The notes beneath the pieces were generated by a model, which worked only from the letters and a program-made list of their open reading frames with translations, was not told where the DNA came from and made no database searches. A stretch of DNA of 40,356 bases, from positions 1 to 40,356 of the forward strand of contig DASYAA010000079.1 in the NCBI GenBank assembly GCA_036501565.1, read 5' to 3'. Position 1 is the first letter of the stretch, and each line of letters opens with the position of its first letter. Below are positions 4,172 through 34,814 of the stretch, in pieces. A program made the translations under genes and the position numbers. The DNA comes from Verrucomicrobiia bacterium (lineage in GTDB: Bacteria > Verrucomicrobiota > Verrucomicrobiia > Limisphaerales > UBA11358).

Positions 4172-5026
4172 CTAAACTTTTACCGCATCAATTTCCAGTC
4201 GCATCATTTTCACATGGACTTTGCCTTCAGCATCCGGCGGATGCTTGGCGACGTAACGTTGCGTGACGGCGGCGATGAATTCTTCGCGCAGGTTTTCCGA
4301 CACGCGCTGGACATAAGGAATCCACGTCGTGCGCAGCCATGTGGCAAAACCGTTTGCGCCATCGTAGGTTGCGTCTTTTGGCGTGAGTTTGAGCGAATTG
4401 ATTTTGAAGCCAAATTTCGGCAGCCATTTTTCGTAATTGTCCGGCGCATAAAAAAAATATGGCGTCGGCATTTTGCGGAAGAATTTACGCCAACGTTTCA
4501 ACTTTATTTCCGGACGCAGTGCGACGAAAACGTCCTGCGCATTTCCCTTGCCGCCGCAAGAAATGATCAGTCGCGCGCCAGATTTCATGACCGAGGCCGC
4601 GCCGCGCAGGATTTTTTCGTGGTCATCCACCCAATGCAACGCGGCGTTGGAAAACACCAGATCGAATCCATCGCCAAATTTTTTCGCAGAAATTTTCCGC
4701 GCGTCGCAAATTTGAAATTTCAGATTCGGAAATTTGCCCGGCGGAAAAGTTTTTTTGGCGAATCCGATCATTTGCGGCGAAGCATCCGCTCCGGTGACGG
4801 AACCGCGCGGCCCGGCGCACGCGATTTCCGCCGTCACTTTGCCGTCGCCGCAACCGACATCCAAAATGTTTTCGTCGCCGCGCAGTTTGAGCTTGACGAT
4901 GAGTTCGCGCGCCCAAACTTGTTGCACAAAGGAATTCGCGGCGTAATCGGCAGCGTTCCATTTTGCGGGTGAAGAATTTTTTGCGGCCACGACTAAACCA
5001 ATCCCGCAGTTTCGGAAAAACCGCAA
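4172..5026 (-). CDS. Class I SAM-dependent methyltransferase (trans-aconitate methyltransferase-like)
   Basis: The motif ILDVGCGDGKVT (SAM-binding motif I), the WNAADY N-terminus and FSNAALHW are present. The start is uncertain: the ATG at 5026 overlaps argC by 34 nt, and an in-frame GTG at 4990 sits 2 nt after the argC stop. Confidence 0.85.
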   Translation of the reverse strand: MRFFRNCGIGLVVAAKNSSPAKWNAADYAANSFVQQVWARELIVKLKLRGDENILDVGCGDGKVTAEIACAGPRGSVTGADASPQMIGFAKKTFPPGKFPNLKFQICDARKISAKKFGDGFDLVFSNAALHWVDDHEKILRGAASVMKSGARLIISCGGKGNAQDVFVALRPEIKLKRWRKFFRKMPTPYFFYAPDNYEKWLPKFGFKINSLKLTPKDATYDGANGFATWLRTTWIPYVQRVSENLREEFIAAVTQRYVAKHPPDAEGKVHVKMMRLEIDAVKV

Positions 5027-6030
5027 ATGATGTTCATGCTTTGAACCGCCTGGCCGCTCGCGCCTTTGACAAGATTATCTTCCGCGCTCATCACGACGAG
5101 CCGGTTTGTCCGCGAATCCAGTCGCCATGCGATTTCAATTATATTTGTGCCGGCAACATTTTTTGTGTCGGGTAACGATTTACCTTCGAGCAAGCGGATG
5201 AACGGTTCGTCGCCGTAAAATTTTTTGTAGCAGGCGGAAATTTTTTCGCCCGACAATTTTCCTTTCGGCTCAAGATAAAGCGTCGTCAAAATGCCGCGAT
5301 TGATTGGAATCAAATGCGGCGTGAATTGAATCGTGACTTGCGTTTTGGCCGCGAGCGAAAGCTGTTCCTCGATTTCCGACAAATGCCGGTGCTTCGACAC
5401 GCCGTAAGGCCGGACGCTTTCGTTGCACTCGACAAAAAGATAATCCGCTTCGATTTTTCGTCCCGCGCCGCTGACGCCGCTCAATGAATCGGCAATGATG
5501 CCGGTCGGTTTGATCAAACCTGCCTTGAGCAATGGAATCACCGGCAGCAAAATGCTGGTCGGATAACAGCCCGGCGACGCGATGAACGAAGATTTTTTGA
5601 TCTGCGCGCGATAAATTTCCGGCAGGCCATAAACGGATTTTTTCAGCAAGTCCGGCGCGGGATGCTCGTGCGCGTAAAATTCTTTGTAAACTTCCGCGCT
5701 CTTGAGCCGGAAATCTGCGCTCAAGTCAATGACCACGCAACCGGCGTCGAGCAACGGCACGGCGTATTCGGCGGCGACGCCGTGTGGCAGCGCGAGAAAA
5801 ACCACGTCGGCCTGCTTTGCCAAAATTTCGGCGTTCGGTTCGGTGAAACGGAGCGTTTTGGATTTCGGAAGGCTGGCGAATTTTGGAAAAAACTGCGCCA
5901 GCGTTTGCCCGGCATTTTGGCGCGAGGTCACGGCTACCAGTTCCGCGTGCGGATGGTTCAGCAGCAAGCTGACCAGTTCTTCGCCGGAATAACCCGACGC
6001 GCCAACAATGGCGACTTTCTTTGTTTTCAT
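4993..6030 (-). CDS. argC: N-acetyl-gamma-glutamyl-phosphate reductase
   Basis: VAIVGASGYSGEEL (NAD-binding motif) and the SPGCYPTS active-site Cys motif are present. The ATG at 6030 is preferred over the TTG at 6036. Confidence 0.95.
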   Translation of the reverse strand: MKTKKVAIVGASGYSGEELVSLLLNHPHAELVAVTSRQNAGQTLAQFFPKFASLPKSKTLRFTEPNAEILAKQADVVFLALPHGVAAEYAVPLLDAGCVVIDLSADFRLKSAEVYKEFYAHEHPAPDLLKKSVYGLPEIYRAQIKKSSFIASPGCYPTSILLPVIPLLKAGLIKPTGIIADSLSGVSGAGRKIEADYLFVECNESVRPYGVSKHRHLSEIEEQLSLAAKTQVTIQFTPHLIPINRGILTTLYLEPKGKLSGEKISACYKKFYGDEPFIRLLEGKSLPDTKNVAGTNIIEIAWRLDSRTNRLVVMSAEDNLVKGASGQAVQSMNIICGFSETAGLV

Positions 6031-6050
6031 TTTCAATTACGTTCTTTTTA

Positions 6051-6075
6051 ACGCAAAGACGCAAAGACGCAGAGG
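6051..6075. repeat. Tandem 8-mer ACGCAAAG/ACGCAGAG; member of the CACAGAG/GCGCAGAG dispersed repeat family
   Basis: The sequence acgcaaag acgcaaag acgcagag g resembles 7816-7840 and 11907-11932. Confidence 0.6.
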
Positions 6076-12757: not shown

Positions 12758-14380
12758 GTGCCAGTCAGTGATTCCATCCGCAAAAAAATCAGCGCGTTGC
12801 CGCACAAGCCGGGCGTGTATCTGCATCGCGACCGGTTCGGCACTGTCATCTACGTCGGCAAGGCGCTCAATTTGCGCAAGCGTGTCAGTCAGTATTTTCA
12901 ATTCAGCCGGCGCATGGGCTGGGACTTGAAATTCAACGCGCTCGTCGAGGCGATTTGCGATTTCGATTTTCACGTCGTCCGCAGCGAACCCGAAGCGCTC
13001 CTGCTCGAAAGCAAACTGATCAAGGAATTCAAGCCGCGCTACAACATCAGCTTCCGTGACGACAAACGTTTCCTGATGCTGAAAGTGAACCTGAACGATC
13101 CGATCCCGAATTTTACTTTTGCGCGATTCAAAAAAGACGACGGCGCAAAATATTTTGGTCCGTTTGTCAACGCGACGGCGGCGCGAAACGTCGTCACGCT
13201 CGCGCAACGGCAATTTAATCTGCGCGGCTGCCGCGTGTTTACGCCCGGCGAGGCGGATTACAAGCACTGCCTTTACGCGCATCTGAAATACTGCACCGCG
13301 CCGTGCGTTGGAAATGTTTCGCGCGAGCAATATCTCGAACAAGTCAAGGCCGCGTGCGGTTTTCTCGAAGGCCAGTGCCGCGAAATGCAGGAGCAGCTCG
13401 AAGGCGAAATGAAAAAAGCGGCGAAGAACCAGGATTTTGAAAAAGCGGCGAGCCTGCGCGACTTGGTTCGCGACCTCAAAGACACCTGGAAAAAGACGGA
13501 GAAATTTACGCGCATTCCGTATTCGTTGCCGGGAAGCATCCAGCCGCAAAATGATCTGGTCGAACTGGCAAATGTTTTGGATTTGCCCGAGCCACCGCTA
13601 CGGATTGAAGGTTTCGACATTTCAAACATCAGCGGCACATTCGCCGTCGCGTCGCTCGTTAGTTTCAAAAATGGACGGCCTGACCGCGCGAATTATCGTC
13701 GCTTCAAAATCAAAACCGTCGAAGGTCAGGACGATTTTGCAAGCATGGCGGAAGTCGTGCGGCGACGTTATATGCGTTTGCTCAACGAGTCCAAAGTCCA
13801 AAGTCCAAAGTCCAAAGACGAAGGCGGCGAGGCGATTCCGCAGGAACTTCAAAAATTGGTGAATGAAACGAGCCGGAAAATTAGGCGCGGAATTCCGGCT
13901 AAAAATTCCGAGCTTCAATTCACAAAATCCAATCTGCCGGATTTGATTTTGATTGATGGCGGCAAAGGGCAATTGAGCGCAGCGGTTGGCGAATTAAAAA
14001 AACTTGGCCTCGAAAAAATTCCGATCATCGGGCTGGCGAAAGAATTTGAGGAGATTTATCTGCCTGGCAAAAGCGAACCGTTGCGGCTCGGCCTCAATCA
14101 TCCGGCGGTGAAATTATTGCAGCGCATCCGCGACGAATCGCATCGCGTGGCGAATTCCTACAACGCGCAATTGCGGCTCAAGCGGATTTCCGAAAGCGTG
14201 CTGGATGAATTTCCCGGCATCGGCGAGCGGCGCAAATCGGCGTTGCTGAAAAAATTCGGCTCGGTGCGGCGATTGCAACTGGCGACGCTGGAACAAATTT
14301 CCGAAGTGTCCGGCTTCGGCGGCAAGGCGGCGGAGGAATTGAAAAAATTTCTGGACGCGCGATCAACTTTGCCCGGCTGA
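12758..14380 (+). CDS. uvrC: Excinuclease ABC subunit C
   Basis: GIY-YIG N-terminus (PGVYLHRDRFGTVIYVGKALNLRKRVSQYF), UVR motif (FEKAASLRDLVRDL), IDGGKGQL, and a C-terminal HhH (FPGIGERRKSALLKKFGS). GTG start. Confidence 0.95.
   Translation: MPVSDSIRKKISALPHKPGVYLHRDRFGTVIYVGKALNLRKRVSQYFQFSRRMGWDLKFNALVEAICDFDFHVVRSEPEALLLESKLIKEFKPRYNISFRDDKRFLMLKVNLNDPIPNFTFARFKKDDGAKYFGPFVNATAARNVVTLAQRQFNLRGCRVFTPGEADYKHCLYAHLKYCTAPCVGNVSREQYLEQVKAACGFLEGQCREMQEQLEGEMKKAAKNQDFEKAASLRDLVRDLKDTWKKTEKFTRIPYSLPGSIQPQNDLVELANVLDLPEPPLRIEGFDISNISGTFAVASLVSFKNGRPDRANYRRFKIKTVEGQDDFASMAEVVRRRYMRLLNESKVQSPKSKDEGGEAIPQELQKLVNETSRKIRRGIPAKNSELQFTKSNLPDLILIDGGKGQLSAAVGELKKLGLEKIPIIGLAKEFEEIYLPGKSEPLRLGLNHPAVKLLQRIRDESHRVANSYNAQLRLKRISESVLDEFPGIGERRKSALLKKFGSVRRLQLATLEQISEVSGFGGKAAEELKKFLDARSTLPG
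13789..13816. repeat. Heptanucleotide tandem repeat GTCCAAA x4 inside uvrC
   Basis: Four perfect copies that translate as KVQSPKSK within a lineage-specific linker. Confidence 0.9.
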
Positions 14381-15004
14381 TGAACGGGTTCTGTTCGCAG
14401 CGTCGCCCAATCCATAACTTATAGCGGCAAAAAAACCCGCCGGAATGACTGCCCAAAGAACTGTCACCAACAACTGATCGCTGGTGAAATTGAAATGCGG
14501 CAAAATAAAATTCGCGGCGAATCCGCCACAGACCGGCCAAAAAAGAGACGCGACAGCTTGAATTATTTCCCTCCGTCGCTTGTCAGGAACAATCGGAACA
14601 AATCGGTAAAACTGCGGCGTGCTGGACCAAATCAAAACGAACAGAGCAACTGCGACAAATCCCGCCATTCGTTCCGCAGCGCTCATTTCGATCTTGAAAA
14701 GTAAATAGCTGCACCAAAGCAAATATAGAAACGCAAACGCGGGGCAAAAAATCCTCATCGGTTTTCTTTGCCTCGCGCATTTGGTTTCGCCAATTTTCGT
14801 GAACTCGACTTTCAGTGCATTGGCTTGCCCAATTTTCTGAATAGCGGAATTAAAAGCGGCCTGCCCGTCCAATCCCGATGCCATCTGCCGCTCAATTTCT
14901 TCGCGCAGATGAATTTCCAATTCTTCCAGCGGCACGGGCGTTTTGATTCCGGCGGCGAGCATTTGTTTTCGCCATTCGATGATTGATTGTTCGAGGTTGA
15001 ACAT
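14363..15004 (-). CDS. Membrane protein with a PadR-associated N-terminal module (permease-prefix-like domain), about 4 TM segments
   Basis: 213 aa. The first 40 aa are nearly identical to the upstream paralog. The C-terminal half is hydrophobic. It is the last gene of the PadR operon, and its 3' end overlaps the uvrC 3' end by 18 nt (convergent). Confidence 0.75.
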   Translation of the reverse strand: MFNLEQSIIEWRKQMLAAGIKTPVPLEELEIHLREEIERQMASGLDGQAAFNSAIQKIGQANALKVEFTKIGETKCARQRKPMRIFCPAFAFLYLLWCSYLLFKIEMSAAERMAGFVAVALFVLIWSSTPQFYRFVPIVPDKRRREIIQAVASLFWPVCGGFAANFILPHFNFTSDQLLVTVLWAVIPAGFFAAISYGLGDAANRTRSSAGQS

Positions 15005-15011
15005 ATTCCGA

Positions 15012-15440
15012 CTATGCTTTGCGCTTTTTGAAACCGTAGATTGCCATGCTTATGCCGGCGAAGACAATGGGAATCCCGATCAGAAAACCGATTGTTGCGT
15101 CGTGAACCATCGTTCCCTGTTCATTATATTTGGCGATCGCCGGCGTGACAAATCCCATACCGACGGCAACGCCGATTATACCCGCGCTGATGATGATTGT
15201 TCGTCTCATAAATGTCCTTTCACTTTTGTTGAATTCGTTTTTTAGCATTTTAGGTTGACCAATTTTCCGGGTAGAAAAATGAAAAGCTTCCTGTTCGTTC
15301 AAGCTCAATCCCAATTTGATTTGCCGCTCAATTTCTTCGCGCAAATGGATTTCCAATTCTTCCAACGGCACGGGCGTTTTGATCCCAGCGGCGAGCATTT
15401 GTTTTCGCCAATCTGCGATGGATTGTTCGAGGTCAAACAT
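15012..15440 (-). CDS. Membrane protein with a PadR-associated N-terminal module, 2 TM segments
   Basis: 142 aa. The N-terminus is MFDLEQSIADWRKQMLAAGIKTPVPLEELEIHLREEIERQ, followed by two hydrophobic segments. Its start overlaps the PadR stop by 8 nt. Confidence 0.75.
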   Translation of the reverse strand: MFDLEQSIADWRKQMLAAGIKTPVPLEELEIHLREEIERQIKLGLSLNEQEAFHFSTRKIGQPKMLKNEFNKSERTFMRRTIIISAGIIGVAVGMGFVTPAIAKYNEQGTMVHDATIGFLIGIPIVFAGISMAIYGFKKRKA

Positions 15441-15780
15441 ATTGCTCCTTTTTTAATCCGGCCAAAACGGAATGCACCAGCGACCATTGTTCGTGGTGTT
15501 TGGCCATCGCCGTTTTGCCATCTTTTTTGAGCGAATAGTATTTCCGCTTCCGTCCGGTCTCGCTTTCCGCCCAGCGCGACTTGATCAGTCCGCGATGTTC
15601 CATCCGGTGCAAAACCGGATAAAGCATTCCGTCCGTCCAATTCAATTTGCCGTCCGAGCGCGCCTTGACTTCCTGAATTATGGCGTAACCGTAGCTCTCA
15701 CCCTTGGAAAGCAGCGATAAAATTAGCGGTTCAGCCGAGGCGGCGACGAGTTCTTTGCGAATCATAGGAACACGATACAT
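15433..15780 (-). CDS. PadR family transcriptional regulator
   Basis: Winged-helix signature LILSLLSKGESYGYAIIQEV...GMLYPVLHRMEHRGLI...RKYYSLKKDG. The start is ambiguous among ATGs at 15765, 15780 and 15843. Confidence 0.9.
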   Translation of the reverse strand: MYRVPMIRKELVAASAEPLILSLLSKGESYGYAIIQEVKARSDGKLNWTDGMLYPVLHRMEHRGLIKSRWAESETGRKRKYYSLKKDGKTAMAKHHEQWSLVHSVLAGLKKEQYV

Positions 15781-15902
15781 AGACTTTATATGTATGTCAA
15801 GCGGAAAATTCAGCGCGTCGGCTTTTCGTCGATTGCGCGCCAAAGAAATAGCTCTCGTTACGTCTCAAACTCCGATAAACTGGCAAAGTCGAAAGACATT
15901 TT

Positions 15903-25888: not shown

Positions 25889-26302
25889 TCATGGCCGGGT
25901 TTCTTCCGGCAACAAACTCAACACAAAATCATAAATTTCCCGCGCCTGTTTAAGCGCTTCATCAAATTCTTCGCGCGTAGGCATCGTTTCGGACAAATCG
26001 TCCGGGTAGCGAAATTCCCAGGCGTAAGGCGTCAACGCCGCCGCCGCCGGAACAAATTTATCGAAACGCGGTTCAATCGCGGAGGCTTCAACCGCCAGCT
26101 TGCGAATGTCGTGCGTTTTTTCCGGCGTGATTTCTTTGAACACCAGAAATGATTTCACGGCTTTTTCGGCGCCCTGCTGGCAATGATAAATCGCCACGTC
26201 GAGCGGACCTTCCGGGTCGTTGCTCAAAACGCGCGCGCTCCGCAAATCGCCGGCGGCTTTGGTCAGCCAGGAACGCACAAGTTGTCTGTGAGTTTCATCC
26301 AT
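25889..26302 (-). CDS. HEPN domain protein (PF05168-like; putative toxin partner of the upstream nucleotidyltransferase)
   Basis: 137 aa, all-alpha. AGDLRSA..L, the conserved KTHDIRKL helix and EFRYPDD are as seen in small HEPN proteins paired with MNT genes. It overlaps the MNT gene by 8 nt. Confidence 0.8.
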   Translation of the reverse strand: MDETHRQLVRSWLTKAAGDLRSARVLSNDPEGPLDVAIYHCQQGAEKAVKSFLVFKEITPEKTHDIRKLAVEASAIEPRFDKFVPAAAALTPYAWEFRYPDDLSETMPTREEFDEALKQAREIYDFVLSLLPEETRP

Positions 26303-26615
26303 AGAGTTTGCGTCCCCGCTTCAAAATGTCCTGCGTCAAACTTCCGCGAACGTCGCGCACGCGATTCACCTCCCGGCGCGTCCTGACCAAAATGTCGGCG
26401 GAAATCAGTAGTCTGCCCAGACAATGCTGCGCGCGCTGGTCGCGGCGAATCGGCCGCTCGTCGCTTTGCGGGACGATGACCATGAAATCCACGTCGCTGT
26501 CCTCGGTCGGCGCGCCCCACGCGTGCGAGCCGAACAAATAAATTTCCTCCGGTTGAAATTCATTTTTCAACCGTTCAACCGCTTCGTCCAATAAATGTTG
26601 CGGGACGATTTTCAT
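26295..26615 (-). CDS. Minimal nucleotidyltransferase (MNT, NTP_transf_2-like; putative antitoxin)
   Basis: 106 aa with the motif IYLFGSHAWGAPTEDSDVDFMVIV (G-S ... D-x-D polymerase-beta-fold signature). Its ATG directly abuts the nuoL TAA (TAAATG). Confidence 0.88.
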   Translation of the reverse strand: MKIVPQHLLDEAVERLKNEFQPEEIYLFGSHAWGAPTEDSDVDFMVIVPQSDERPIRRDQRAQHCLGRLLISADILVRTRREVNRVRDVRGSLTQDILKRGRKLYG

Positions 26616-31008: not shown

Positions 31009-32694
31009 TTAGATTTGCACCGTCACGCCGGTGTCGCCAAGCGTCGCCCACGCCAGACCGTTGAACGCGGAAACGTCCTTCGCCATTTCGTTGAACAGAC
31101 CTTCGATGGTCACAAAACCGTTCTGGCCGGTGACATTGTGAACGAGGTCGTGCAAAAATTCCCATTCGGCGCGTGCGTCGCCGGGCGCTTCGACGGCCTT
31201 CATGAATTTCTGGACGCGTCCTTTCGTGTTCGTGAACGTGCCGCGTTTTTCCGCGTGCGCGCAGCCGGGCAAAAGATAATGCGCGAGCCTTGTCGTCGCG
31301 TTCGGCAAAATGTCGCTGACGATGAGCGTCTCCAATTTGCCGAGCAAATCCGCGCCGAGGCCGTGCTTCGTCACGTCTTCGCCGAAGACAATTAAAGTTT
31401 TGATTTTACCGTTTGAAATTCCGTTGGCGATTTGCGGCAAATTCGTTCCCATTTCGGTGAAACAAATTCCCGTGAGCCGCGCGCCGTTGCTGTTCGGATT
31501 TTTATCCGCGCTTACGAGCAGCTTGTCGCCTTTGCCGATGCGCGCAATTGAATCACTGATTGCGCCGAACTTCGATTTCAATTTTGAAATCAGCCACAGT
31601 TCTTCGTTTGTCTGCCGCGCGGAAGCAACAATCGCGACTGAGCCTTGCGGCGCTTTCTTCAGCTTGTCGCTGATTTCATTGAGCGCCGCCGTCCACGTCG
31701 TTTTTTGTCCGCGAGCAAGCACATCCTTCAAACGGTCTTCGCGGCCGATCCATTTGTAATTCAAACGGCCGGCGTCGCACATCCAGCAGGAATTGACGGC
31801 GTCGTTCTGGCGCGGTTCGTAGCGATAAACTTTTTCCTCGCGCGAGCCGACGATGACGTTGCAGCCCGTCGCGCAGCTTGTGCAGACGCTTTTGGTCTCC
31901 TTTAAAAACCAGACGCGCATCTGGAAACGAAAATCCTTCGACGTGAGCGCGCCGACGGGACAGATGTCCACGGTGTTGAGCGTGTAATTGTTGTCGAAAA
32001 CTTTTCCCGGATACGCCGTGAGCGTGTTCCAACTGCCGCGATTGACGATGCCGAGCGCGTCGTCGCCGACGATGTCCTTCGTGAACCGGATGCAGCGCGT
32101 GCAAAGGATGCAGCGCTCGTCGTCAAGCACGATGCGCGGGCCGAGGTCAACGGCCTTGGGCTTGTGGACTTTCGGTTCGACGAAGCGGCTCGCGCTCTGG
32201 CCGTAATCAACGGAATATTCCTGCAACTTGCATTCGCCCGCCTGATCGCAGATCGGGCAGTCGAGTGGATGATTGACGAGAAGAAATTCCAGAACGCCTT
32301 CGCGCATCTGTTTCACGCCGGGCGTCGAAGTGTGAATCTCCATGCCCGGCGAAATCGGCGTGGCGCACGCGATGGCCGGGCGCGGCGATTTGGCAATTTT
32401 CGGTGTGCCGTCGGGATTCAAAATGGGCTTGCGATCTGGGCCGAGCGCGGGCGTGCCGTATTCCACAAGGCACATGCGGCAGTTGCCGACGACGGGCAGT
32501 TTCGGATGATAACAATAATGCGGCACGTCCACTTTGTTGAACGCGCACGCTTGAATCATCGTCGTTGGAATTTGTTTGCCGGAAATCGGGTCGGGCATCG
32601 TCTTCGGCACTTCGATTTCGCGACCGTCCACCTTCACCTTGATTTTTTCAATCACAGGCGCGGGCTTAATTTCAGTTGTGGCTGCGGTTGACAT
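31009..32694 (-). CDS. nuoG: NADH-quinone oxidoreductase subunit G (short form, 561 aa)
   Basis: 2Fe-2S and 4Fe-4S motifs are present: CYHPKLPVVGNCRMCLVE, HPLDCPICDQAGECKLQ and CILCTRCIRF. Confidence 0.94.
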   Translation of the reverse strand: MSTAATTEIKPAPVIEKIKVKVDGREIEVPKTMPDPISGKQIPTTMIQACAFNKVDVPHYCYHPKLPVVGNCRMCLVEYGTPALGPDRKPILNPDGTPKIAKSPRPAIACATPISPGMEIHTSTPGVKQMREGVLEFLLVNHPLDCPICDQAGECKLQEYSVDYGQSASRFVEPKVHKPKAVDLGPRIVLDDERCILCTRCIRFTKDIVGDDALGIVNRGSWNTLTAYPGKVFDNNYTLNTVDICPVGALTSKDFRFQMRVWFLKETKSVCTSCATGCNVIVGSREEKVYRYEPRQNDAVNSCWMCDAGRLNYKWIGREDRLKDVLARGQKTTWTAALNEISDKLKKAPQGSVAIVASARQTNEELWLISKLKSKFGAISDSIARIGKGDKLLVSADKNPNSNGARLTGICFTEMGTNLPQIANGISNGKIKTLIVFGEDVTKHGLGADLLGKLETLIVSDILPNATTRLAHYLLPGCAHAEKRGTFTNTKGRVQKFMKAVEAPGDARAEWEFLHDLVHNVTGQNGFVTIEGLFNEMAKDVSAFNGLAWATLGDTGVTVQI

Positions 32695-32697
32695 TTT

Positions 32698-32940
32698 TCA
32701 AATTTCTCCGCGTCGCAAATCTTCAATCGGGAAAATCATTTCAAAATCTCCCCACATCAAATCGCCGTTCTGAATATGGAATGACTTGAATTGTTTCAGG
32801 CGACGATATTTTGAAAACATCGGATTCTGCGCCTTCTTCAGAAACGGCCCGAAGTCAACGAGGCGATGCTTGCCGTCGTTGAATTCAACGTCCACCTTGT
32901 AACGGGGAACATAGCTGGCGTGTTTCACTCGCAAATACAT
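32698..32940 (-). CDS. DUF2442 domain protein
   Basis: 80 aa. The pattern Y.V.VEFNDG..R.VDF.PFL ... F..F.I.NG.L.WGD.EMIFPIEDL is typical of DUF2442 as I remember it. It sits 3 nt after the DUF4160 gene and 3 nt before the nuoG ATG. Confidence 0.8.
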   Translation of the reverse strand: MYLRVKHASYVPRYKVDVEFNDGKHRLVDFGPFLKKAQNPMFSKYRRLKQFKSFHIQNGDLMWGDFEMIFPIEDLRRGEI

Positions 32941-32943
32941 ATT

Positions 32944-33249
32944 CTATTTAATTTTCCGCGTAATAATTTCAGGTTTCACGACTTTGTTCAAAACGAAAAC
33001 ATCCGACCACTTTTTCAAAATATCCTCGGCCTTCGCGTTCACCAGTTCGGCAAAATGTTTTCTGACTTTGCCGGACAGCGGACGGCGATTCGACACGCGG
33101 CAAAACCGGATGGAAACAATTTTTCCATCGCGCGTAATGATTTCAGCTTTTGTCTCAAGCTCGCCATAACGACCATGCACATGAACCGGCAAATGTTCGC
33201 CCGCAAAAAAGAAAACCGAAATGCCAAGATATTCATAAAGTTTGGGCAT
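32944..33249 (-). CDS. DUF4160 domain protein
   Basis: 101 aa. MPKLYEYLGISVFFFAGEHLPVHVHGRYGE matches the DUF4160 N-terminal signature (MP....G..i.my..EH.PPH.H..Y.e). The ATG is 7 nt after the nuoF stop. Confidence 0.8.
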   Translation of the reverse strand: MPKLYEYLGISVFFFAGEHLPVHVHGRYGELETKAEIITRDGKIVSIRFCRVSNRRPLSGKVRKHFAELVNAKAEDILKKWSDVFVLNKVVKPEIITRKIK

Positions 33250-33256
33250 GACGCTT

Positions 33257-34690
<1,434 letters not shown>

Positions 34691-34740: not shown

Positions 34741-34814
34741 TGCCCGATGGTGTAACGGTAGCACAGCAGACTCTGAATCTGTTTGTCATGGTTCAAATCC
34801 ATGTCGGGCAACCA
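34741..34814 (+). tRNA. tRNA-Gln (anticodon CUG), with encoded CCA
   Basis: Hand-folded cloverleaf: acceptor TGCCCGA/TCGGGCA; D arm GTGT-AACGGTA-GCAC; anticodon arm GCAGA-CTCTGAA-TCTGT (U33, CUG, A37); variable loop TTGT; T arm CATGG-TTCAAAT-CCATG; discriminator A; CCA. The U1-A72 pair is typical of bacterial tRNA-Gln. Confidence 0.9.

What the first reader, a model, noticed from the sequence alone, without database searches (positions are those of the whole stretch)
32698..33249. DUF4160/DUF2442 two-gene module embedded between nuoF and nuoG
Seen in sequence: the junctions read nuoF TGA -7 nt- DUF4160 ATG, DUF4160 TAG -3 nt- DUF2442 ATG, and DUF2442 TGA -3 nt- nuoG ATG. All are on the minus strand. 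This stretch is visibly AT-richer (about 45% by eye) than the flanking nuoF and nuoG, which suggests later acquisition. Established knowledge, from memory: DUF4160 and DUF2442 genes co-occur very frequently as adjacent small genes and have been suggested to be TA-like, but as far as I know the pair has no experimentally defined function. Inference: a functionally undescribed two-gene system sits inside the N-module/Q-module connection of complex I and is forced into its transcription unit. It may be an addiction or defence module, or possibly an assembly or regulatory factor.
Basis: partly seen in the sequence, partly recalled or inferred. Interest (0 to 1): 0.78.

Follow-up and report, generated by a model that had tools for sequence, protein, structure and literature searches.

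The report
Toxin-antitoxin pair lodged inside complex I operon
Two small genes wedged between the complex I genes nuoF and nuoG are a DhiT/DhiA-type toxin-antitoxin pair, sitting in a slot that related soil and peat Verrucomicrobia repeatedly fill with other selfish gene modules, so it is an ordinary kind of module in an unusual and recurrent place.

Summary
On the minus strand, nuoF (33257-34690), a 101-aa DUF4160 gene (32944-33249), an 80-aa DUF2442 gene (32698-32940) and nuoG (31009-32694) follow each other with 7, 3 and 3 nt spacers. The pair is 44.4% GC against 55-56% for its flanks.

The claim that the pair has no experimentally defined function is outdated. DUF4160/DUF2442 is the DhiT/DhiA type II toxin-antitoxin family, validated in Dickeya dadantii and as a plasmid-persistence module in Thermus.

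- **Empty site:** 44 of 77 related Limisphaerales species have nuoF and nuoG up to 30 nt apart with no insert, mostly 5-9 nt.
- **Other occupants:** the rest carry palindromic repeats, other DUF4160/DUF2442 pairs, another addiction-type pair, restriction-modification systems or odd genes. All coding inserts confidently called (Pfam hit or clear homology) run with the operon and are packed to within about 10 nt.
- **Selection:** both genes are under strong purifying selection (dN/dS 0-0.12).
- **Decay:** decayed copies have always lost the toxin and kept the antitoxin.
- **Second module:** an MntA/HepT-like pair sits between nuoL and nuoM in the same window.

Verdict: a selfish addiction module at an insertion hotspot inside an important respiratory operon. 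It is not a complex I factor. The family is known; the niche appears undescribed.

The parts
32944..33249 (-). DUF4160 gene, 101 aa. Inferred toxin (DhiT-like).
   Evidence: Pfam PF13711 E=1.3e-8. A weak NCBIfam toxin_DhiT hit at 25 bits, below the equivalog cut-off. Across 59 homologues K3, Y5, Y7, H19, P21 and H25 are invariant and E18 and H23 nearly so, giving an E-H-x-P-x-H-x-H motif. The AF2 model has pLDDT 92.6 with no PDB or BFVD fold match. Against L002 there are 15 nt differences and no amino-acid change.
32698..32940 (-). DUF2442 gene, 80 aa. Inferred antitoxin (N-terminal domain of DhiA type, with no DNA-binding domain).
   Evidence: Pfam PF10387 E=7e-8. The NCBIfam antitoxin_DhiA model matches over its positions 3-62 of 160, below cut-off. 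The AF2 model has pLDDT 93.3, and its best folds are 2AUW (NE0471 N-terminal domain, TM 0.72, rmsd 2.0) and 3K8R. All 80 DUF4160 loci sampled across phyla have an adjacent downstream DUF2442.
33250..33256 (-). 7-nt spacer between the nuoF stop and the DUF4160 start.
   Evidence: The empty-site allele in relatives reads TGA-TTGCC/TTTCA-ATG.
32695..32697 (-). 3-nt spacer between the DUF2442 stop and the nuoG start. The last codons of DUF2442 (CGC GGA GAA ATT) place a GGAG about 10 nt before the nuoG ATG.
   Evidence: The CGCGGAGAAATYTGA ending is conserved in copies that abut nuoG.
33257..34690 (-). nuoF, the upstream flank and inferred recombination arm.
   Evidence: Complex1_51K, SLBB and NADH_4Fe-4S domains. 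83-95% amino-acid identity in 80 related species.
31009..32694 (-). nuoG, the downstream flank.
   Evidence: NuoG domain set.
25889..26615 (-). Second TA-type module in the same operon, between nuoL and nuoM. It comprises a nucleotidyltransferase (106 aa, 26295-26615) and a HEPN protein (137 aa, 25889-26302), of MntA/HepT type.
   Evidence: NTP_transf_2 E=5.9e-11 and HEPN E=4.2e-26. A below-cut-off NCBIfam MntA_antitoxin hit. Spacers are 0 nt, an 8-nt overlap, and 3 nt. It is absent from the L-M junction of 78 related species.

Best explanation
The two genes are a DhiT/DhiA-family (DUF4160 toxin, DUF2442 antitoxin) type II toxin-antitoxin addiction module. It has been inserted, co-oriented and probably without a promoter of its own, into the nuoF-nuoG intercistronic junction of a Limisphaerales (Verrucomicrobiota) complex I operon.

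Shown:
- Both domains are present in toxin-first order, and the genes are under purifying selection.
- The insertion is derived, because the closest relatives have an empty site.
- The junction is a recurrent hotspot that also holds other addiction-type modules.

Inferred:
- The toxin acts through its conserved E-H-x-P-x-H-x-H centre on an unknown target and is neutralised by direct binding of DUF2442. This is by analogy with DhiTA and the Thermus PEM module.
- The pair is transcribed from the nuo promoter and translated in a coupled chain nuoF -> toxin -> antitoxin -> nuoG.
- It persists for two reasons: loss of the antitoxin gene would free the toxin, and imprecise deletions would destroy nuoF or nuoG.
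- It moves between related lineages by homologous recombination, using the conserved nuo genes as arms.
For: Family assignment and experimental precedent:
- Both Pfam hits are above their gathering cut-offs. The DUF2442 fold matches 2AUW and 3K8R.
- In Dickeya, DhiT overproduction inhibits growth and DhiA rescues it (PMC8198452).
- In Thermus, the pair raises plasmid persistence, and deleting the second ORF gives no transformants (PMC12724237).

The site is derived and a hotspot:
- 44 of 77 related species have a nuoF-nuoG gap of 30 nt or less, 13 carry an 80-100 nt palindrome, and 20 carry larger inserts.
- The larger inserts include DUF4160/DUF2442 pairs, an Unstab_antitox gene plus a 98-aa partner, NotI/D12/Bpu10I-type and N6_N4-methylase restriction-modification genes, YcxB and PepSY_TM. 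The coding inserts confidently called (Pfam hit or clear homology) are co-oriented, and insert ends lie within about 10 nt of the flanking nuo stop and start codons.

Selection and decay:
- dN/dS is 0-0.12 for both genes, similar to nuoF.
- All four decayed copies lost or truncated the toxin and kept the antitoxin. In L031 the first six toxin codons are fused to DUF2442. L033 has a truncated toxin. L016 and L025 have an orphan antitoxin. The reverse was never seen.

Inheritance and transfer:
- Window-like pairs co-diverge with NuoF (Pearson r=0.81 over 21 pairs).
- A host with NuoF 93-94% identical to the window carries a pair only 56% identical (L098).
- Between the window and L002, the pair's dS (0.20-0.26) is far below that of nuoF (0.61).

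Transcription: no promoter-like or terminator-like site lies on the minus strand in or just upstream of the pair.
Against: - Toxicity, neutralisation and co-transcription were not tested in this organism.
- The scores against the NCBIfam DhiT and DhiA equivalog models are far below cut-off (25 vs 100 bits, 19 vs 200 bits). The relation to the characterised system is therefore at superfamily level only.
- The 80-aa antitoxin lacks the C-terminal part present in DhiA and NE0471, so the autoregulation shown for dhiTA cannot simply be transferred.
- The DUF4160 fold has no solved relative, so the biochemical activity is unknown.
- The promoter scan uses a sigma-70 consensus that may not fit Verrucomicrobia.
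- Long co-divergence with the operon and strong purifying selection would also fit a host-beneficial role.
Confidence: 0.72

Rival explanations
1. The pair's main role is anti-phage defence (abortive infection), and the nuoF-nuoG slot is a miniature defence island. On infection the antitoxin would be lost or the nuo transcript shut off, and the DUF4160 effector would then stop the cell. This overlaps with the best explanation rather than excluding it.
For: - DUF4160 occurs as an effector domain of NsnC in the Menshen anti-phage system (PMC12065111).
- In relatives the same slot holds restriction-modification systems.
- There are weak PHROG hits to phage proteins of unknown function.
Against: - PADLOC has no hit for either protein at E<=1.
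- The slot also holds genes unrelated to defence, such as PepSY_TM, YcxB and palindromic repeats.
- No phage-challenge data were found for a stand-alone DUF4160/DUF2442 pair in the papers read.
Confidence: 0.2
2. The pair has been domesticated as an accessory, assembly or regulatory factor of complex I. For example, it could tune NuoF/NuoG stoichiometry or respond to the redox state of the N-module.
For: - The window-like lineage (68-100% identity) was found only in nuo junctions. Four metagenomic homologues, 86-68% identical, lie between nuoF and nuoG, and one 87%-identical copy lies between nuoC and nuoD (L264).
- It co-diverges with NuoF (r=0.81).
- dN/dS is as low as for nuoF.
- The tight spacing implies coupled translation.
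Against: - 57% of related species have no insert at all, including the closest ones (L017 and L008).
- The slot is filled interchangeably by unrelated TA and restriction-modification modules.
- Decay is toxin-first.
- Homologues about 50% identical are spread over many phyla with no nuo linkage: 72 of the 80 best loci.
- Low GC marks the pair as foreign.
Confidence: 0.07
3. The ORFs are an assembly artefact or non-functional remnants with no activity.
For: The window comes from a metagenomic contig, and the genes are short.
Against: - The same arrangement appears on independent contigs from JGI, ENA and Logan assemblies.
- There are hundreds of homologues.
- dN/dS is 0-0.12.
- Both AF2 models are high-confidence folds.
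Confidence: 0.01

Closest known systems
dhiTA of Dickeya dadantii 3937 (type II TA; PMC8198452)
   Same: It is a DUF4160 toxin and DUF2442 antitoxin domain pair in toxin-first order, with adjacent or overlapping genes. The toxin inhibits growth and the antitoxin neutralises it.
   Different: - dhiTA is a free-standing bicistronic operon with its own promoter, repressed by the antitoxin and the complex.
- The DhiA model is 160 positions long; the antitoxin here is 80 aa and matches only positions 3-62.
- Scores here are far below the NCBIfam equivalog cut-offs.
- The pair here sits inside another operon.
Thermus thermophilus plasmid 'Persistence Enhancing Module' (DUF4160 87 aa / DUF2442 92 aa; PMC12724237)
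   Same: It is a short two-gene pair of similar sizes in the same order. The genetics point to an ORF1 toxin and ORF2 antitoxin, it stabilises its replicon, and it lies directly downstream of another gene (rep).
   Different: It is plasmid-borne and acts in plasmid maintenance. Here the pair is chromosomal, between two respiratory-chain genes.
DUF4160 effector domain of NsnC in the Menshen anti-phage system (PMC12065111)
   Different: In Menshen the domain is fused into a larger defence protein. Here it is a stand-alone protein with a DUF2442 partner.
NE0471 (PDB 2AUW) and Rru protein (PDB 3K8R), solved DUF2442-type structures
   Same: Same fold as the 80-aa protein (TM 0.72 and 0.63, probability 1.0).
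   Different: NE0471 carries an additional C-terminal domain and was deposited as a 'putative DNA binding protein'. That domain is absent here.
Integration hotspots between core genes, and restriction-modification units inserted into operon-like clusters (from my own knowledge of work by the Rocha and Kobayashi groups; no paper retrieved)
   Same: The same interval between two conserved genes is filled by different accessory or selfish modules in different lineages, with flanking core genes serving as recombination arms.
   Different: Described hotspots usually lie between transcription units and hold kilobase-scale islands. Here the hotspot is an intercistronic junction of 5-8 nt within a gene cluster. 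The inserts are single small modules packed to within about 10 nt.
Integron gene cassettes
   Same: They are promoterless, co-oriented small modules rich in TA pairs, glyoxalase/bleomycin-resistance, SMR and DUF genes. This is the same kind of cargo seen across the nuo junctions.
   Different: No attC site can exist here, because only 3 nt follow the DUF2442 stop. No integrase or attI was seen in the window or the loci examined.
Unidentified reading frames interspersed in the Paracoccus and Rhodobacter nqo/nuo clusters (from memory; not retrieved)
   Same: Unrelated small ORFs sit between complex I structural genes.
   Different: As I recall, those ORFs are conserved within their clade and are not TA-like. 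I did not check this here.

Membership tests
DUF4160/DUF2442 (DhiTA-type) type II toxin-antitoxin | First gene encodes a DUF4160 domain protein | tested here: met
   PF13711 at 35.4 bits against a cut-off of 23. N-terminal MPKLYEY and the E-H-x-P-x-H-x-H motif are conserved.
DUF4160/DUF2442 (DhiTA-type) type II toxin-antitoxin | Second gene encodes a DUF2442 domain protein | tested here: met
   PF10387 at 33 bits against a cut-off of 23.9. The fold matches 2AUW and 3K8R.
DUF4160/DUF2442 (DhiTA-type) type II toxin-antitoxin | Adjacent, co-oriented genes in toxin-first order with a spacer of a few nt or an overlap | tested here: met
   The spacer is 3 nt. All 80 homologous loci have an adjacent downstream DUF2442.
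DUF4160/DUF2442 (DhiTA-type) type II toxin-antitoxin | Equivalog-level similarity to Dickeya DhiT and DhiA (NCBIfam NF048015 and NF048016) | tested here: not met
   25.2 bits against a cut-off of 100, and 19.3 bits against 200. It is a superfamily member, not an orthologue.
DUF4160/DUF2442 (DhiTA-type) type II toxin-antitoxin | Toxin inhibits growth; antitoxin binds and neutralises it | not testable with these tools
   Only indirect evidence is available: four decayed copies lost the toxin and kept the antitoxin, never the reverse.
DUF4160/DUF2442 (DhiTA-type) type II toxin-antitoxin | Own promoter, autoregulated by the antitoxin and the TA complex | tested here: inconclusive
   No sigma-70-like site was found on the minus strand near the pair. 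The upstream spacer is only 7 nt. The antitoxin has no domain beyond DUF2442. A promoter inside nuoF cannot be excluded.
Complex I subunit or dedicated assembly factor | Conserved presence in the nuo operons of related organisms | tested here: not met
   44 of 77 related species have no insert between nuoF and nuoG. Others carry unrelated modules there.
Catalogued anti-phage defence system (PADLOC-DB 2.0) | Match to a defence-system protein model | tested here: not met
   No family at E<=1 for either protein.
Integron gene cassette | attC recombination site downstream of the cassette ORF | tested here: not met
   Only 3 nt separate the DUF2442 stop from the nuoG start.
HUH (Y1) single-strand DNA endonuclease/transposase (considered because of the H-V-H motif) | HUH-fold similarity | tested here: not met
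   Foldseek found no match with E<0.09 in PDB or E<0.03 in BFVD, and none to HUH enzymes.

The most novel reading that the evidence does not exclude
The intercistronic junctions of the Limisphaerales nuo operon may be a specific niche for promoterless addiction modules that arrive as bare ORFs. The homology between copies in different junctions starts about 5 nt before the toxin ATG and ends at the antitoxin stop. This could imply an undescribed ORF-precise insertion or exchange mechanism that targets stop-start junctions. Alternatively, one DUF4160/DUF2442 lineage may have become a long-term, operon-bound partner of complex I expression and not merely a passenger.
Probability: 0.12. Interest if true: 0.8.

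Novelty: new variant of a known kind. Interest (0 to 1): 0.55.

Why it matters
The module belongs to a toxin-antitoxin family that already has experimental support, so the 'undescribed two-gene system' framing no longer applies.

What I did not find described in the searchable literature is the setting. A 5-8 nt junction inside a respiratory operon acts as a recurrent landing site for TA pairs, restriction-modification systems and repeats across dozens of species. The coding inserts confidently called keep operon orientation and tight packing.

If this pattern is general, it shows a way for selfish modules to:
- obtain expression without a promoter;
- gain protection from deletion through important neighbouring genes;
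- gain ready-made homology arms for spread between species.

It also gives a natural series (intact, toxin-deleted, replaced, empty) for studying TA gain and loss. In practice, small ORFs inside nuo operons of Verrucomicrobiota MAGs should not be annotated as complex I accessory subunits.

Tried and rejected
- **HUH nuclease or self-mobilising toxin idea** (from the H-V-H motif): no fold support.
- **Integron-cassette idea:** there is no room for an attC site.
- **Sequence searches of the PDB** with single proteins and with profiles gave nothing for either protein. Only the fold search placed DUF2442.
- **PADLOC:** no hits. **PHROGs:** only weak hits of unknown function.
- **'Cluster 0':** a recurrent ORF family in the nuoE-nuoF junction turned out to be translation across an antisense tRNA-Gln gene. 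It is not a protein.
- **Greedy ORF picking** chose spurious minus-strand ORFs in several inserts (L037, L042, L063). Flank inspection showed plus-strand TA genes instead.
- **NuoL/M/N paralogy** corrupted the first two L-M/M-N junction tables. One search is the corrected version.
- **liv operon control** for nuo-specificity: only 8 loci were from close relatives and gene content varied. It suggests fewer inserts (3-7 of about 75 at inner junctions) but is not a clean control.
- **Literature searches** for TA modules in nuo operons, restriction-modification insertion into operons, and nqo URFs retrieved nothing usable.
- **The 98-aa partner of the Unstab_antitox gene** in L056 and L082 got no Pfam or NCBIfam hit, so its toxin identity is only presumed.

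Full report
**Observation**

On the minus strand the window reads nuoF (33257-34690, 477 aa), a 101-aa ORF (32944-33249), an 80-aa ORF (32698-32940) and nuoG (31009-32694, 561 aa).

Pfam assigns the two small proteins to DUF4160 (PF13711, E=1.3e-8) and DUF2442 (PF10387, E=7e-8). Both are above their gathering cut-offs, and the flanks carry complete NuoF and NuoG domain sets. The pair is 44.4% GC with GC3 of 48-56%. nuoF and nuoG are 55-56% GC with GC3 of 67-71%.

**Are the genes real and functional?**

The identical DUF4160 protein is encoded in the same position on independent contigs from seven samples in the JGI, ENA and Logan collections.

Against homologues in the same position, dN/dS is 0-0.12 for both genes, the same range as nuoF. 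Against L002, the toxin gene has 15 nucleotide differences and no amino-acid change.

AlphaFold2 gives confident single-domain models, with pLDDT 92.6 for DUF4160 and 93.3 for DUF2442.

**What family is it?**

NCBIfam's closest models are 'type II toxin-antitoxin system toxin DhiT' and 'antitoxin DhiA'. The scores are far below the equivalog cut-offs.

- **Dickeya dadantii 3937.** The source paper shows that dhiTA, annotated there as DUF4160/DUF2442, is a co-transcribed toxin-first pair. The toxin inhibits growth of Dickeya and E. coli, the antitoxin rescues, and the promoter is repressed by the antitoxin and the complex (PMC8198452).
- **Thermus thermophilus.** A DUF4160 (87 aa)/DUF2442 (92 aa) pair on a plasmid raises plasmid persistence. 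A construct lacking the second ORF gives no transformants (PMC12724237).
- **Menshen system.** A comparative study of the Menshen defence system lists DUF4160 as an effector domain and notes its usual pairing with DUF2442 (PMC12065111).

Structurally, the DUF2442 model matches the N-terminal domain of NE0471 (2AUW, TM 0.72) and 3K8R. It lacks the extra C-terminal part present in NE0471 and in the 160-position DhiA model. The DUF4160 model (five strands and a long helix) has no significant match in the PDB or in BFVD. Its conserved core is K3, Y5, Y7 and E18-H19-x-P21-x-H23-x-H25. This looks like a metal site, but that reading is an inference.

**Context in relatives**

NuoF places the window in Verrucomicrobiota, among Limisphaerales and Pedosphaera-like MAGs. 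I examined 80 species-representative genomes with NuoF 83-95% identical to the window. In the 77 where both genes were found:
- 44 have nuoF and nuoG separated by 30 nt or less, typically TGA-TTGCC-ATG;
- 13 carry an 80-100 nt palindromic repeat at the junction;
- 4 carry 131-300 nt;
- 16 carry more than 300 nt.

The closest relatives lack the pair. L017 has NuoF and NuoG both 94% identical, with an 8-nt spacer. L008 (95% and 91%) carries a 100-nt palindrome. The insertion is therefore derived.

The larger inserts are:
- other DUF4160/DUF2442 pairs (L063, L074, L085, and a decayed copy in L033);
- DUF2442 alone (L016, L025, L031);
- an Unstab_antitox/TIGR02574 'addiction module component' with a 98-aa partner (L056, L082, with homologous sequence in L037 and L042);
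- a NotI-type endonuclease with a D12 methylase and a Bpu10I-like endonuclease (L064);
- N6_N4 methylases (L025, L045);
- YcxB-like proteins, a PepSY_TM protein, and unknowns.

The coding inserts that could be confidently called (by a Pfam hit or clear homology) run in the operon's direction, and insert ends lie within about 10 nt of the neighbouring nuo stop and start codons.

Other nuo junctions (C-D, D-E, E-F, G-H, H-I, I-J, L-M, M-N) are also length-variable. They hold a PIN-domain protein, glyoxalase/bleomycin-resistance, SMR and cupin proteins, IS200-type transposases and a FokI-like protein.

In the window itself, a nucleotidyltransferase/HEPN (MntA/HepT-type) pair lies between nuoL and nuoM, with 0-nt and 3-nt spacers.

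**History of the pair**

Metagenomic homologues of the toxin at 86, 75, 75, 68, 56, 53 and 51% identity all lie between nuoF and nuoG. One, at 55%, lies elsewhere.

Two subtypes can be told apart:
- **Window-like ('A').** Toxins are 68-100% identical to the window's, with an 80-aa antitoxin and a short spacer. Their identity tracks NuoF identity (Pearson r=0.81 over 21 locus pairs, which are not independent). This indicates co-divergence with the operon.
- **Second type ('B').** Toxins are 50-57% identical, with a 4-nt overlap and antitoxins of 86-138 aa. Its identity shows no such correlation.

Type B occurs in hosts interleaved with type A and empty-site hosts. L098 has NuoF 93-94% identical to the window, yet its pair is only 56% identical. 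Type B also occurs in the nuoC-nuoD junction (L070, L079) and outside nuo (L097).

One type A copy, 87% identical, also sits in the nuoC-nuoD junction (L264).

I compared L063 (F-G junction) with L070 and L079 (C-D junction), whose pairs are 85-89% identical. DNA homology begins about 5 nt before the toxin ATG and ends at the antitoxin stop. What moved is essentially the two ORFs.

Between the window and L002, the pair is 95% identical in DNA (dS 0.20-0.26). nuoF is 88.6% identical (dS 0.61) and nuoG 82.7%. This fits a more recent common ancestor for the pair than for its flanks, meaning exchange by recombination through the conserved nuo genes.

Among the 80 best DUF4160 loci in species genomes, all 80 have an adjacent DUF2442. 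Only 8 are nuo-flanked, and all 8 are Verrucomicrobiota. The remaining 72 come from many phyla. The family is therefore a widespread mobile TA, and the nuo association is a feature of this clade.

**Decay pattern**

Four copies are degraded:
- L031 keeps the first six toxin codons (MPKLYE) fused to an intact DUF2442.
- L033 has a truncated toxin and an intact-looking antitoxin.
- L016 and L025 keep only DUF2442, next to repeat-derived sequence.

No locus has the toxin without the antitoxin. This asymmetry is what a real toxin-antitoxin relationship predicts, and it is the best indirect evidence available here for toxicity in these hosts.

**Mechanism, with what is shown and what is inferred**

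Shown:
- family membership at domain and fold level;
- toxin-first architecture;
- derived insertion at a recurrent hotspot;
- purifying selection;
- toxin-first decay;
- allele replacement among close hosts.

Inferred:
- toxicity and neutralisation by binding, by analogy with DhiTA and the Thermus module;
- transcription from the nuo promoter. There is no sigma-70-like promoter or terminator on the minus strand around the pair, and spacers are 3-7 nt. The scan may not suit this phylum;
- coupled translation. The conserved ending CGC GGA GAA ATT TGA of DUF2442 places a GGAG about 10 nt before the nuoG ATG;
- persistence, because precise loss would be punished by the toxin and imprecise loss would damage nuoF or nuoG;
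- spread by homologous recombination.

**Rivals**

- **Defence role.** This is compatible with the TA reading but untested. PADLOC has no hit, while the slot's restriction-modification neighbours and the Menshen link speak for it.
- **Complex I accessory role.** This is unlikely, given the absence from most relatives, interchangeable cargo, foreign composition and toxin-first decay. The long co-divergence and strong constraint keep it alive at low probability.
- **Artefact.** Excluded.

**Novelty and score**

The module is a member of a known, recently validated TA superfamily. Relative to the characterised examples it differs in three ways: it is embedded in another operon, it has no room for an upstream promoter, and its antitoxin has a single domain.

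The hotspot inside the nuo operon, with bare-ORF cargo, was not found in the literature I could search. I rate it a new variant of a known kind with moderate interest.

**Caveats**

- The comparison set is mostly MAG contigs.
- The control operon was not clean, so I cannot say whether nuo is special or whether all operons in these genomes are similarly colonised.

Noticed in passing
window 25889-26615 (- strand): A second TA-type module lies in the same operon, between nuoL and nuoM. It comprises an NTP_transf_2 nucleotidyltransferase (106 aa) and a HEPN protein (137 aa), of MntA/HepT type, packed with 0-nt and 3-nt spacers. It is absent from the same junction in 78 related species.
   Followed up: partly
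window 34741-34814 (+ strand): A tRNA-Gln(CTG) gene lies antisense inside the 126-nt nuoE-nuoF spacer (Rfam 66 bits; ARAGORN). This explains why the spacer is 92-94% conserved between species. It may also explain why the E-F junction is so insert-rich in relatives, and it suggests nuoF-N could be transcribed separately from nuoA-E.
   Followed up: partly
L008:6432-6531 and about 12 other loci at the nuoF-nuoG junction; window about 6047-6066 (+): A family of 80-100 nt palindromic REP/MITE-like elements (TTCAACGCAAAGNCGC...GCGTTAA) fills the nuoF-nuoG junction in about a dozen species. The L008 copy folds at -30 kcal/mol (z=-4.1). There is one match in the window downstream of the gene at 4993-6036.
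   Followed up: partly
L067, L073, L081 (nuoH-nuoI junction); L100:7712-8164: IS200-like Y1 transposase genes, possibly REP-associated, sit inside the nuoH-nuoI junction of several relatives, co-oriented with the operon.
   Followed up: no
L023, L029, L040 (nuoD-nuoE); L094, L098 (nuoD-nuoE and nuoE-nuoF); L040 (nuoC-nuoD); L017 (nuoC-nuoD): Other nuo junctions carry integron-cassette-like cargo: glyoxalase/bleomycin-resistance proteins, an SMR transporter, a PIN-domain protein, a cupin, and a FokI-cleavage-domain protein in L059.
   Followed up: partly
L016, L025, L072 (nuoF-nuoG junction): A second repeat family (CTCATTAACACCGGNCTTCAGNCCGGTGTTGG...) lies next to orphan DUF2442 genes, where the toxin gene would be. 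It may have displaced the toxin.
   Followed up: no
window 14363-15843 (- strand): A PadR-family regulator is followed by two paralogous ORFs (142 and 213 aa) with nearly identical N-termini (MF.LEQSI..WRKQMLAAGIKTPVPLEELEIHLREEIERQ) and no Pfam match.
   Followed up: no
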